From NCBI RefSeq assembly GCF_035084215.1, contig NC_090351.1:11532001-11596000 (forward strand): a stretch of 64,000 nucleotides of DNA, read 5' to 3'. Of the stretch, positions 5,912 to 24,290 are shown piece by piece. This DNA is from Heptranchias perlo. Lineage: Eukaryota. A model generated the notes under the pieces. It was not told the origin of the DNA and searched no databases. It saw only the letters and a program-made list of their open reading frames with translations. Position 1 is the first letter of the stretch, and each line of letters opens with the position of its first letter. A program made the position numbers and the translations under genes.

Positions 5912-6005
5912 CTGTGACAGGTCTTGATGGGTGCCTACAATGGTTCTTTTGCGCTTTGGCTGGATTAGTTCTGAAAGGGTCTCCATCGCTGCCACCTGAA
6001 GCCAT
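5912..6005 (-). CDS. BAK1: First coding exon of a probable BAK1 (BCL2 antagonist/killer 1); the gene continues leftward and no further exon was recognised in the window
   Basis: Exon 5912-6041 with TTTTGTAG acceptor, strong Kozak GCACCATGG and AG|GTGAGT donor in phase 1. It encodes MASGGSDGDPFRTNPAKAQKNHCRHPSRPVT, resembling the MASG(N)DGDP N-terminus and phase-1 first coding exon of non-mammalian BAK1 as I recall them. BAK1 and RPS10 are linked on human 6p21.3. No BH domain is visible, so identity is inferred. Confidence 0.62.
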
Positions 6006-7410
6006 GGTGCAACCCAGTTGGCCCAAATGACTGCAGTCAGCCTACAAAATCAAAGTTATAAAAGTCAACACGCAACACAAGGGAATCAAGATTTTTTTTC
6101 CCCCCCCCAAGTCTCCGTTGAAGAGGGCTGAAAAACAAAAATACAAAATTAAAATACCCTTGGCACTGGATATTCCATCTGATATAAGTGCTACTAACAT
6201 TGAAACAGAAAGAGATAATGTGTGTATGTGCAGGATCAGGCTTAGTTGTGAAGCCCATTCCTCCCAACAGATGAATAGACTGCCAACACTCACCATCTAG
6301 GCTCATACAACGAACAGCCACTTGCGATAAGTATTGGAGAGCAACCAACACCCATGGAACTGTTCTCCAGCAAGAAGTTAACAGCTTTACTATAGGAGAA
6401 GGGTGGCAGGACTTTGCAAAACATGTTATACATTACACATACAAATTCACTATGTAAGAGAAATAGCTACAACATACACCATACCACATATGAAGTGTCA
6501 GTGGCAATGTACAACACTTGGTATGAATGAGAGAAGAGCTATCTGTATTCCACTTTGTTACTTAGTCTTCATTATGCATCCCTGCTTACCTCAAGATCTA
6601 CAATTCTCCTGTAGAGGTTTCAAATAATTATGCTGGTCATGAGCCTTATAGGTATAATCAATTTATAGTTTTGTCTGTTGATTATCAATAACAAGACAAA
6701 CATCTCAAACAGCTGCTATAGTCACTTAACCTCTATTTCCAACACAATGTATTTCTGTAAAACCGGTCAAAAATGCCTATCATTTAAATTTGAGTATCAT
6801 TCATATTTCTTCATGTATTTGTTACAACTCAGCACACACACACCCTGCTCAAATCCAAATCTCTGATAAGCTTTGCTATACTATTTATTATACACACATG
6901 GGGTTGGTTACAAAGTGACATAAGGGGTTTAAAAGGCTGACAACTCAAAAAAGTTAAATCTCACGCTGTTAACAACTCAACTAACCCATAGGTACGTTAA
7001 CTGTTTTCTACCACTCCTAGGTATGCACTGAACTCACACATGTAAGAGGCAATGAAGTAAACGAGCATAACTTCATCCATTTGTACAGGCATGATGTTCC
7101 AGGACCATCCGAAAACGAGAAGTGCTAAAAAGTCATTATAGAGATATTAAAAATGCATTAGAAATTTAATAAGGCTTACATAATTAATGGCAGCGTATTA
7201 TTTCTCTAGTCTCAAAAGCAAACAGGTTTTAGACCCATTTTGAGTCCTACACAATTATGTAGTGGTTCTATCATCTACCATCACTCTGCAACACTGGTTT
7301 CTCCTGCCAGTATCCCTTCCCCTTAGAAAATGGTGATAATGACAGAACAGTAGAAAAGTCAAGAACCAAGACAAAGTTATTCAAATCATCTAACCTCATT
7401 ATTGTGGATA

Positions 7411-8656
7411 ACATACAAATTAAGAGCAAGAGTAGGCCATTCAGTCCCTCGAGCCTTCTCTGCCAGTTGATAAGATCATGGTTGATCTGATTGTGACCTC
7501 AACCCTACTTTCCCGTCTACCTACTATAACCTTAGATTCCTGATTAACAAGGGGGTCAATCTAACTCAGCCTTAAAAATATTCAATGACCCTGCCTCTAC
7601 TGCTCTCTGGGGAAGGGAGTTCCACAGACTCACAAACCTCAGAGAAAAAATTTCTCTTCAGCTCAGTCTTAAATGGGAGACCCCTTATTTTTAAACTGTG
7701 GCCCCTAGTTCTAGTCTCTCCCACAAGGGGAAACATCCTCTCAGCATCTACCCCTTCAAGTCCCCTCAGGATCTTACAGGTTTCAATGAGATCACCTTTC
7801 ATTCTTCTAAACTCCATCTACACAGGCCCAACTTGTCCAACCTTTCCTCATAAGATAATCCCTCATCCCAGGAATCAGTTGAGAGAACCTTCTCTGAACT
7901 GCCTCCAATTATGTCCTTTTTTAAATAAGGAGGCCAAAACTGTACACAGTATTCTAGGTGTGGTCTCACCAATGTCCTGTACAACTGTAGCAAAACATCT
8001 CTACTTGTACATTCCGTTCCCCTTGCAATAAATGGCATTTGCCTTCCTAATCACTTGCTGTACCTGCATACTAACTTTTTGTGATTCATGTACTAGGATA
8101 CCCAGATCCCTCTGCAACTCGGAGTTCAGCAATCTCTCTCCATTTAAATAATATACTGTTTTTCTATTCCTCCTGCCTATTTGGACAAGTTCACATTTTC
8201 CCACATTATACTCCATCTGCTAATTTTTTGCCCACTCACTTAACCTATCTATATCCCTTTGCAGACTCCTTATGTCTTCTTCACAACTTACTTTTCTACC
8301 TACCTTTGTGTCATCAGCAAATTTAGCAACCATACATTTGGTCCCTTCATCCAAGTCATGATACAGATTGTAAATAGTTGAGGCCCAAGCACTGATCCCT
8401 GTGGCACTCCACTCATTACATCTTGCCAACCTGAAAATGACCCATTTATGCCTACTCTGTTTCCTGTTAACATGGATAAAGGATTGGTTAGCTAATATGT
8501 TACCCCCTACACCATGAGCTCTTATTTTGTGTAGTAGCCGTTGATGTGGCACCTTGTCAAAAGCCTTCTGGAAATCTAAGTACACCACATCCACAGGATC
8601 CCCTTTTATCCATGTTGCTTGTTACTTCCTCAAAGAACTCTAATAAATTAGTCAAT
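7411..8656 (-). mobile_element. CR1 (HER1-like) LINE, RT to 3' tail, frameshifted
   Basis: ORFs [53 protein letters not shown]1 tail. Confidence 0.9.
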
Positions 8657-10939
8657 ATAAAAATAAATCACTCAAAGAGGAAGAACAACAGCCACTATAA
8701 CAATGCTGTTGAAGGGCATTAGGAGTTGTAACAACCTTTGAATTCAGATGATGTGTACAGACAGCTCAAGATTCTTGTGGTTAGGAGGTCACCAGTATCT
8801 TGTAATTGCATTACAGTATTGAACACAATTATTTGGAGTAGATACAAAACTGCAATGTCGTTCAGGGGTTCAAATAACATTCTAAACCGTAAGACCGAAG
8901 TTCAAGAAGTCGAAGATCGTCATCTGAATCCAGGTACTGCATCATAAGTTTGTAACACATTCCAATACAATTGCTAATGAAACAGACAGCTCTCACTGTA
9001 CCATTGGGGAAGCAGCTTTCCTCCTGGAGGAAAAAACAGCAAAACCAATGTCTACCTCTAGAGGCAAATTCAAGAGCAACACTAGGAACAGGTCATTTAA
9101 TTGTTCTCGCTGCTAACTGGAGCAAGAAAGACAAAAAAACTTTAAGAATTTAACTCTTCCATGCACTTTATCTTATGCAAAGATTTGGCAAACAAAAAAC
9201 CCTAAATTTCCATTTGCTTGCATGGGTACAGGTGCAAAATTGGACTTCTTAAACACAAGCACATTTTTCACCCATTTTCTTTAAATGAGCCATCATTTGC
9301 CAATCCAGGACATGAATAGCCCACTAATCTAAAAAGGAGCTAATTCTCCTTTCTGTTTACACGTTCTCAACCACTCTTCAACACACAAAATTGGCTACAC
9401 TGACAACTATATTGCACATCATGGAAATTCACTTTCATTCGTCATTGCAACTTGCACGTTATCTACTAGGAAAATAACAATTGATATTGTAGATGAATTA
9501 GGCTGACTTTCCATTTGTTAGGTCCCAGTCCACCTCGGGGAAATCCAACAGCCAGTGACAATGCTCTAATGGGACATTCATTACCACAAGTCTCACTTAT
9601 CTATCATCAGATCAGTCACTACATGAATGTCATTTGTTAGCTCAGCATCTTACCCTACAACATTACACAAACCTGCTGTATTTTTAAGGTACAGTTGCTC
9701 AATATGAAACTAGCTCCATCATTTAACAAAAATTACATTTGTCCAAAACAAAGACCCCCAAAAAATGCCTCAACCTCTTGACTTGTGGTGCTTTCAGAGC
9801 AAGCTGCCATAGAAACCAAGATGTATCAATGCACTCTTCCTGCAACCACTGTGCAATAAAACTGTACAATGGCTTCATAAAATATGCATCTTAATGTACT
9901 CACAAAATATAGGTGAGCATAAACTTGAGAACTCAATATAAAAATAATATTTTTTATTAACTCTGGAAATGAATGTATTTTACAAATTCAAAGATCTTCA
10001 GGACACAGAAGTCTTCACAAAAAGATATTTGGGTATTTTTAAAATATAGTAAAATAGATAGCTTCTGAGTACATTAGAAACCTGAAGGGATTAAGGGATT
10101 TGAAGAAAGTCACAATCATGGATCATTAAGAATGAGCCAACTTTATGAACCATTCAAGTAAGATTGCATTGCAGCTCTCTAATATTACCCAAGACAACGA
10201 TTATTATTTTAATACATATAATACTAGCCCCCCACCTCCTTCCTCCATTTTGCCTTCAGAATAGAAGCCATTTATAACTTTTACTTTTTCCCACATCTTG
10301 CTTTACTGCGTCTCAAAGTAATACTACTTTTTTTTTAATTACTTGGAGCATCAACTCTTCTTACTTCCCTGTACTCCTTTTGCACAAATCTCAACAATTA
10401 TGGACATCCTTACCCTCTTTCACTAACTAACACCTGCTGTCAAAAAGAGATCCAAACAGTGGACTTGGAACATTGGGAAGTTGCTACTTGCATACTTACA
10501 AAGATTGATATGCACACTTGGATCAAACTCCCTAGTCATTAAACTAGTAATCAATTAGTACCAAACTAAGGAGCAAAGTCTCATTCTAAAGCACTTACAA
10601 AATTCTGTTTGACATGAGGAAATTATAATTTCTAGGAGTATAAAAATATTACATAAGCCATTTTGAAATTTATACAAGGAAATGGCAACAAATATTGATT
10701 TTGAGTGGTATTAATCCAGCCTCTTGACACCACAGAAGTTTATGCATGGACCTGGAAAATAAGGATGCAACACCAGCCACACATTTGATTTTGATCTGCC
10801 CAAGTATACACACTTACTGACATGCAATAAAAACTTTAAAGTACAATGTCCCACAGTACTTTGCAGAGAAATAAGAGAACGAACACCAGGCTATGGGAAA
10901 GAGGTTAGGAGAGGTGACTGAAGTCTAGGTTGAAAAGAT

Positions 10940-23779: not shown

Positions 23780-24130
23780 ACCGTTGTTGACAGTTCGAGT
23801 TAACCCGTGCACTCGCCCACACGTTTACAAGCGGTAACCGTTGGCAAAAGAAGCCGGCACTGCAGCTCTACTCCCGCTCGCAGCCTCGTCCCGAGGGCAA
23901 ACACCACGCGCTGCATCACGGGATATATCGGGAGGCCAAACTGGGCTGGGGGGGGGGAAACTACAACTCCCATGATGCCGCTCGGGCACGCGTGCGCAAA
24001 GGGGAAAGGAACCGGTTTTGCTCGGTGCGCATGCGCATTGGCCCTTGCACCAGGCCGGCCGTGGAGGCTGCCTCGGTTTGATTGAGGTGAGTTGTCAGAT
24101 CTTCGTGTTTCGCGGCCAGGCCTTCCCACA
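23780..24130 (+). promoter_or_regulatory. TTLL1 CpG-island promoter with ZNF143/SBS-type and NRF1 motifs
   Basis: ACTACAACTCCCATGATGC at 23960-23978; perfect NRF1 palindrome TGCGCATGCGCA at 24026-24037; donor-like GAG|GTGAGT at 24087. Confidence 0.75.
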
Positions 24131-24177
24131 TTTCGTATTTCATTAATTAACTCAATTTTTTTCACCTCCTTGAAATT

Positions 24178-24290
24178 ATGGCCGGGAAAGTAAAATGGGC
24201 GACAGACATCGAGAAATCGGTGCTTGTGAATAATTTTGAGAAGAGGGGCTGGAGTCAGACATCTACTGATGAAGACTGGAACTTCTACTG
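24178..24290 (+). CDS. TTLL1: TTLL1-family tubulin polyglutamylase, coding exon 1
   Basis: [37 protein letters not shown](W); donor GTGAGT at 24291. Confidence 0.95.

What the first reader, a model, noticed from the sequence alone, without database searches (positions are those of the whole stretch)
5912..24290. BAK1 head-to-head with TTLL1 mirrors BIK head-to-head with TTLL1: possible BAK1-BIK ohnology
Seen: the minus-strand gene diverges from TTLL1 with no other recognisable gene between them. Known: human BIK, a BH3-only protein with a C-terminal membrane anchor, occupies the same position and orientation relative to TTLL1. Inference: if this gene is BAK1, the synteny implies that BIK is a degenerated duplicate of a multidomain BAK-like ancestor. 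That would bear on the origin of a BH3-only apoptosis regulator.
Basis: inference. Interest (0 to 1): 0.72.

Follow-up and report, generated by a model that had tools for sequence, protein, structure and literature searches.

The report
Shark synteny links BIK to BAK
A shark chromosome keeps the cell-death gene BAK next to a spare copy of the gene TTLL1 that bony vertebrates appear to have lost, which suggests that the small human cell-death trigger BIK is a trimmed duplicate of BAK from an ancient whole-genome doubling.

Summary
Confirmed, with one correction. The minus-strand exon (5912-6041) starts a full multidomain BAK: RNA-like contigs splice it into BAK helix 1, and it is 31/31 identical to a 218-aa shark BAK with BH3, BH1, BH2 and TM. 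BAK and this TTLL1 share a contig in 13 of 13 chondrichthyan species checked, elephant shark included. The correction: cartilaginous fish have two TTLL1 genes. The window copy (A) lies between BAK and RPS10, both at human 6p21.31. The other copy (B) is on a different contig in 17 of 17 species and groups with bony-vertebrate TTLL1 (94/90 and 90/83; rivals not rejected, p about 0.1). So this is the BAK1 block, and human 22q13 (PACSIN2-TTLL1-BIK) is its likely genome-duplication sister, with BIK in BAK's slot. Sequence agrees: Bik is the top non-BAK BH3 match, and 15 of 68 BAKs match the BIK Pfam model outside BH3. A Bak- or Bax-like origin of BIK is already in print; the BAK-specific, duplication-dated evidence was not found in ten searches. 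Shark BIK itself was not seen.

The parts
5912..6041 (-). BAK (BAK1) first coding exon: 36 nt leader, ATG at 6005, 31 codons plus 1 nt, phase-1 donor; the remaining exons lie left of the window
12099..12350 (-). BAK non-coding exon 1 (3' end exact; 5' end approximate from contig lengths) inside a CpG island
   Evidence: loose ends match 12101 onward; CpG o/e 0.9; donor site
12351..23500 (.). intergenic spacer with retroelement remnants (reverse transcriptase, endonuclease, GIY-YIG); no recognisable gene
23501..24500 (.). CpG island at the TTLL1-A start
24178..43910 (+). TTLL1 paralog A, nine coding exons; kept in cartilaginous fish, not seen among the bony-vertebrate hits listed
58799..60056 (-). 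RPS10, two coding exons mapped (59907-60056, 58799-58973); a human 6p21.31 gene that marks the block

Best explanation
Before the last jawed-vertebrate genome doubling (2R-jv) there was one block, roughly PACSIN - RPS10 - TTLL1 - BAK. The doubling made two. One copy (human 6p21.31, chicken 26) kept RPS10 and a working multidomain BAK (BAK1); cartilaginous fish also kept its TTLL1 (copy A, this window), and bony vertebrates lost it. The other copy (human 22q13, chicken 1) lost RPS10, kept TTLL1 (copy B), and its BAK turned into BIK. Likely mechanism (inferred): about 30 residues between BH3 and the end of helix 5, including the BH1 motif, were lost. That removed the groove that buries BH3 and drives BAK dimers. 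BH3, a helix-6/BH2-like stretch and the membrane tail were kept, giving a membrane-anchored protein with an exposed BH3 that neutralises pro-survival proteins instead of forming pores. Shown: gene identity, adjacency, two TTLL1 paralogs, RPS10 neighbour, BAK-BIK similarity. Inferred: which TTLL1 is orthologous, the 2R timing, the deletion mechanism.
For: Identity. Adjacency: same contig in 13 of 13 species with both accessions listed, accessions within 3 numbers in 8 of 13. Two TTLL1s on different contigs in 17 of 17 species, the BAK-side contig smaller in 13 of 17. Trees put B with bony-vertebrate TTLL1 (94/90, 28 rows; 90/83, 25 rows); of 30 diagnostic columns, 15 unite B with bony vertebrates, 10 unite A with them, 4 unite A with B, 1 differs in all; judged against the outgroup, shared derived states number 6, 1 and 1. 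Gar TTLL1 and BAK lie on different contigs. Human orders: PACSIN2, TTLL1, BIK, MCAT at 22q13 (PMC10048319); BAK1, RPS10, PACSIN1 in 6p21.31 (PMC4131128). 2R-jv made part of chicken chromosome 1 and all of 26 from one ancestor (PMC7269912 supplement). BH3: of 38 PDB hits to shark BAK BH3, the first 32 are BAK and the 33rd is Bik (E 0.0056); two further Bak peptides, Bim and Puma follow at E 0.8-1.2. Zebrafish Bik matches 8 of 9 core residues, the other 9 listed peptides at most 5 (PMC6148235, counted by eye). Outside BH3: 15 of 68 vertebrate BAKs hit Pfam PF12201 (BIK), best E 2.7e-4; no other BH3-only family is among the 25 listed. The match is BAK ~142-209 to BIK model 87-152, persists weakly without the TM (12.3 bits, E 0.17), and a TM-only piece gives nothing. 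0 of 14 Bcl-2-family pieces from other metagenome loci hit it.
Against: AU tests do not reject A+B (p 0.098) or A+bony vertebrates (p 0.095), and the only outgroup is one distant two-domain protein. The PF12201 hits are below Pfam's cut-off (21.3 vs 25 bits); 53 of 68 BAKs, including all 15 chondrichthyan rows, do not hit, nor did a bird BAK exon-5 piece or a coelacanth BH3 piece. The controls held no vertebrate BAX, BOK or BCL-xL, and most lacked a TM. The human BIK BH3 matches only 5 of 9 (PMC9171138 table). No BIK next to TTLL1-B was seen in any shark; PMC8998228 lists Bim, Bmf and Bid, not Bik, for Chondrichthyes. None of 25 metagenome Bcl-2-family loci carried TTLL1, RPS10 or PACSIN (contigs short). 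The strand of human BIK and the chicken chromosome numbers of these genes are recalled.
Confidence: 0.78

Rival explanations
1. Hidden paralogy: this window is the 22q13-type block, the shark 'BAK' is the true ortholog of BIK that stayed multidomain, and sharks lost BAK1. BIK and BAK1 would still be ohnologs, but the decay would be specific to bony vertebrates.
For: Only one BAK cluster per chondrichthyan species among the 120 of 306 hits listed. A grouping with bony-vertebrate TTLL1 is not rejected (p 0.095). NCBI calls most shark copies 'BAK-like'.
Against: RPS10, a 6p21.31 gene, flanks the window TTLL1. Both trees and the derived-state count favour B as the ortholog, and B's C-terminal tail resembles gar and tetrapod TTLL1. 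It needs reciprocal loss of RPS10, BAK and TTLL1.
Confidence: 0.07
2. BIK derives from BAK but by a later local or segmental duplication, and its place beside TTLL1 is secondary.
For: Sequence evidence shows kinship, not timing. A chondrichthyan-only TTLL1 duplication is not rejected (p 0.098). Bik is not reported in Chondrichthyes in PMC8998228.
Against: It needs a copy to land beside the paralog of BAK's own neighbour, inside the sister block of the same genome doubling.
Confidence: 0.08
3. BIK is not BAK-derived (a BAX-like parent or a BH3 motif arising anew); the shared slot is coincidence and the similarity is generic BH3 plus amphipathic helix.
For: BH3 is a short motif that has arisen several times (PMC9171138; PMC9876281). 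PF12201 hits are below cut-off, and vertebrate BAX/BOK controls are missing.
Against: Two separate regions point to BAK; no BAX entry is among the 38 PDB hits; synteny is independent of sequence.
Confidence: 0.07

Closest known systems
BAK1 (multidomain pro-apoptotic effector, Pfam PF00452)
   Same: BH3, BH1, BH2, TM in the closest full-length record; 54-65% identity to bony-vertebrate BAK; phase-1 first coding intron as in a bird BAK locus; RPS10 linkage
   Different: Its direct neighbour is a TTLL1 copy; gar BAK and TTLL1 are on different contigs
BIK (BH3-only, Pfam PF12201)
   Same: Slot at the 5' side of a TTLL1; near-identical BH3 core in zebrafish; C-terminal half aligns to BAK helix 5 end through TM
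   Different: The window gene keeps BH1 and the whole core, and is not BIK; BIK sits in the sister block
[quoted passage not shown] 2015)
   Same: Same direction of origin
   Different: Here the parent is BAK specifically, the event is the 2R-jv duplication, and the evidence is a retained shark TTLL1 paralog; the 2013 and 2015 source papers could not be read
2R-jv pair chicken 1 / chicken 26 (CLGE+CLGO; PMC7269912)
   Same: Fits the two blocks (chicken positions of these genes recalled; bird BAK hits on 6.7-8.0 Mb contigs, penguin TTLL1 on a 227 Mb contig)
   Different: The passages read give chromosome-level pairing, not these genes

Membership tests
BAK (multidomain effector) | Bcl-2 domain with BH3, BH1 and BH2 | tested here: met
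   By proxy: P0263 is 31/31 identical to the exon, continues as the contigs do, and has all three motifs; PF00452 E 2e-27. The downstream exons are outside the window.
BAK (multidomain effector) | C-terminal membrane anchor | tested here: met
   Hydrophobic tail in P0263 (read by eye)
BAK (multidomain effector) | Closest solved relatives are BAK, not BAX/BOK/BCL-2 | tested here: met
   Full-length BAK chains E 1e-56 to 1e-62, best BCL-2 chain 2e-16, for the ray protein P0002
BAK (multidomain effector) | Pore formation at mitochondria | not testable with these tools
   needs experiment
BAK1 ortholog (6p21.31 block) | Linked to 6p21.31 markers | tested here: met
   RPS10 in the window; one marker only
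BIK ortholog | BH3-only, no BH1 | tested here: not met
   BH1 present; no PF12201 hit for P0263
TTLL1 ortholog of human TTLL1 | Groups with bony-vertebrate TTLL1 | tested here: inconclusive
   Best trees put the other shark copy there; AU p 0.095 does not reject this copy
BAK1-BIK 2R ohnolog pair | Paralogous neighbours in sister blocks | tested here: met
   TTLL1-A/B; PACSIN1/2 in the human blocks; chromosome pair
BAK1-BIK 2R ohnolog pair | Sequence homology beyond a short motif | tested here: inconclusive
   Colinear C-terminal match, best E 2.7e-4 but under Pfam cut-off, 15 of 68
BAK1-BIK 2R ohnolog pair | Shared intron positions and phases | not testable with these tools
   BAK phases 1,2,2,0 shown; BIK phases 2,2,0 with the last intron after a BH2-like Trp are recalled only
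BAK1-BIK 2R ohnolog pair | Both copies in cartilaginous and bony fish; single copy in pre-duplication outgroups | not testable with these tools
   no eukaryote genome held; no BIK sequence obtainable

The most novel reading that the evidence does not exclude
BIK is not a de-novo BH3-only protein but BAK's genome-duplication twin with the BH1 segment cut out, and it still carries BAK's helix-6/BH2 remnant. A less decayed intermediate form sits beside TTLL1-B in sharks or rays, too diverged to rank among the 120 BAK hits listed. This would let the step from pore-former to BH3-only sensor be traced and tested with natural proteins.
Probability: 0.3. Interest if true: 0.75.

Novelty: new member of a known kind. 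Interest (0 to 1): 0.58.

Why it matters
How BH3-only proteins arose is open: reviews treat them as a distantly related, mostly disordered group (PMC6148235), and BIK's parent is given only as 'Bak or Bax like'. A retained shark TTLL1 paralog bridges human 6p21.31 and 22q13, names BAK as the parent, and dates the split to the jawed-vertebrate genome doubling. It predicts a folded remnant in BIK's C-terminal half. It also shows that cartilaginous fish keep two TTLL1 polyglutamylase genes, and that names such as 'TTLL1' in shark annotations can hide paralogy.

Tried and rejected
No whole genome held, so the exons left of the window and the shark TTLL1-B locus could not be read. The HMMER search of 50%-cluster representatives with the 31-aa exon gave one unrelated-looking hit, E 9.4e-4; rejected as chance. 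ESM Atlas: one poxvirus M11L-type cluster at 0.84 and nothing for the BH3 region; no bearing. Viral contigs: no relative. Metagenome contigs: 25 loci, none with TTLL1, RPS10 or PACSIN; too short to test ancestral adjacency. The BAK profile against PDB showed only multidomain chains in the 60 of 227 listed. No run was on record as RNA; depth was not used. Earlier scan findings: nothing in 4 look-ups. Paper look-ups not held: Aouacheria 2013, Aouacheria 2015, a BIK review. The supplement of PMC8998228 showed only file names; its alignments may bear on shark Bik. PMC10136318 and PMC9235069 passages added nothing. Rejected: a BIK gene inside the spacer; a shared bidirectional promoter (two CpG islands 11.7 kb apart); a second full BAK in sharks (none among the 120 of 306 listed; 186 not seen).
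Full report
1. Observation. The window is vertebrate DNA rich in retroelement remnants; its genes match cartilaginous-fish records best. No whole genome is held. A minus-strand exon at 5912-6041 holds an ATG at 6005, 31 codons and a phase-1 donor. TTLL1 starts at 24178 on the plus strand and has nine coding exons to 43910. In 4 of 4 runs laid (2 studies, at most 3 samples; RNA status is the tool's guess), one contig each covers exactly this exon. Upstream it joins 12099 onward, in a CpG island; downstream it continues in frame as BAK helix 1. All 162 stop-free frames of 40 aa or more between 12350 and 24150 were scanned against Pfam; 6 hit at E<=0.01, four retroelement domains and two weak chance-level hits. 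The layout is confirmed. The two starts are about 11.7 kb apart with separate CpG islands.

2. The gene is BAK. The exon found one protein, a ray 'BAK-like' (E 1.9e-10), whose relatives are vertebrate BAKs (120 of 306 listed) and whose best solved matches are BAK. Record P0263 is identical over all 31 residues, continues as the contigs do, and carries BH3, BH1, BH2 and a hydrophobic tail. This is by proxy, because the other exons lie left of the window. Only one BAK cluster per chondrichthyan species appears among the listed hits.

3. The adjacency is old. For 13 species both BAK and this TTLL1 were listed; they share a contig in 13 of 13, with accessions within 3 numbers in 8 (elephant shark, whale shark, two bamboo sharks, cloudy catshark, basking shark, Mobula hypostoma, Heptranchias), within 15 in 2 more, and far apart in 3. 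Accession order is an indirect sign of gene order. In gar, BAK and TTLL1 are on different contigs.

4. The correction. The next gene to the right is RPS10 on the minus strand. BAK1, RPS10 and PACSIN1 are all in human 6p21.31 (PMC4131128, table passage), whereas PACSIN2, TTLL1, BIK, MCAT run in that order at 22q13 (PMC10048319, table passage). A cattle-relative gene model that fuses TTLL1 to a downstream PACSIN-type protein puts BIK at TTLL1's 5' side; BIK's strand is recalled. The TTLL1 search showed two chondrichthyan types, 100% and 84-88% identical to the window exon. Copy B lies on another contig in 17 of 17 species that had both, and the BAK-side contig is the smaller in 13. Trees place copy A, elephant shark included, outside copy B plus bony vertebrates: 94/90 with 28 rows, 90/83 with 25 rows; rows were chosen as near full-length named records, and partial isoforms and unnamed fragments were left out. 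Shared derived columns favour the same grouping 6:1:1. Against this, AU tests reject neither rival (p 0.098 and 0.095), and the outgroup is one distant protein. Simakov et al. state that 2R-jv produced part of chicken chromosome 1 and all of 26 from one fused ancestor (PMC7269912, main-text passages and supplement part 4). That chicken BAK1 is on 26 and TTLL1/BIK on 1 is recalled; bird contig sizes fit. So the window is most likely the BAK1 block, which kept a TTLL1 that bony vertebrates lost, and BIK fills BAK's slot in the sister block.

5. Sequence link. A 31-residue shark BAK BH3 stretch gave 38 PDB hits: 32 BAK entries, then Bik (E 0.0056), then two further Bak peptides, Bim and Puma at E 0.8-1.2; no BAX entry. 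The zebrafish Bik peptide shares 8 of the 9 core residues GRQLAxIGD; the other 9 peptides in that passage share at most 5 (PMC6148235, methods passage; by eye). Human BIK shares 5 (PMC9171138 table passage). Against Pfam, 15 of 68 vertebrate BAKs hit the BIK family PF12201 (best E 2.7e-4), and no other BH3-only family is among the 25 listed. The matched part is not BH3 but BAK ~142-209 against model 87-152: end of helix 5, helix 6, BH2 and TM, nearly colinear (14 of 18 rescanned). Without the TM a 48-residue piece still hits weakly (E 0.17); a TM-only piece and a coelacanth BH3 piece do not. None of 14 Bcl-2-family pieces from other metagenome loci hit, nor a bird BAK exon-5 piece. The scores are under the 25-bit cut-off, no chondrichthyan BAK hits, and vertebrate BAX/BOK controls were unavailable, so this is supporting, not decisive.

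6. Mechanism (inferred). In BAK the BH3 leucine lies 58 residues before the matched stretch (P0013); in BIK about 26-30 (BH3 at 57-68; model position 87). About 30 residues, including BH1, are missing. Losing them would destroy the groove that buries BH3 and makes BAK dimers, leaving a tail-anchored protein with an exposed BH3. This fits BIK's described behaviour: ER-anchored, and killing yeast only through relief of anti-apoptotic proteins (PMC5349181 passages). BAK introns have phases 1, 2, 2, 0, the last after the BH2 Trp (bird locus L004). From recall only, BIK has phases 2, 2, 0 with its last intron after a similar Trp; this is untested here.

7. What is known. [quoted passage not shown] 2015. 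That paper and the 2013 one are not held, so they may contain synteny that I could not see. Ten library searches turned up no paper on BAK-BIK ohnology or on a second shark TTLL1; the search for BIK, BAK and TTLL1 together returned 0, and I opened only 12 of the papers, by passages. Also seen as passages: PMC8998228 (plus section 8 and the supplement file list), PMC7022251, PMC6124574, PMC10136318, PMC9235069. Most subscription papers are not in the library.

8. Verdict. Observation confirmed. Interpretation supported with a corrected orthology: BIK as the 2R-jv ohnolog of BAK1, about 0.78; descent of BIK from BAK by any route, about 0.93. The genes are known and the general idea is in print; the shark evidence sharpens it. 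The missing piece is the gene beside shark TTLL1-B. Interest 0.58.

Noticed in passing
window 24178-43910: Cartilaginous fish keep two TTLL1 genes about 79% identical; copy A has its own C-terminal tail and is strongly conserved from elephant shark to rays, which hints at a distinct role.
   Followed up: partly
window 58799-60056: RPS10 on the minus strand, convergent with TTLL1-A, with a CpG-rich stretch at 61001-62000; marks the 6p21.31-type block.
   Followed up: partly
window 15000-17350: Inverted, partly duplicated retroelement with reverse transcriptase and GIY-YIG remnants (Penelope-like, name recalled), followed by a pyrimidine tandem repeat near 16650-16850.
   Followed up: no
window 6006-6041: The 36-nt leader of the BAK exon is open in frame and conserved as protein-like sequence in sharks and rays; several records annotate longer N-termini.
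   Followed up: no
L001 7584-8165, L003 2319-2885: Invertebrate-type BAK-like genes with helix 1 to BH2 in one exon, unlike the split vertebrate gene; no TTLL1 or RPS10 on these contigs.
   Followed up: partly
proteins P0039, P0040, P0055, P0057, P0108: BAK is present in early-branching teleosts (tarpon, bonefish, eels, mormyrid) although zebrafish lacks it, so its loss in teleosts is partial.
   Followed up: no
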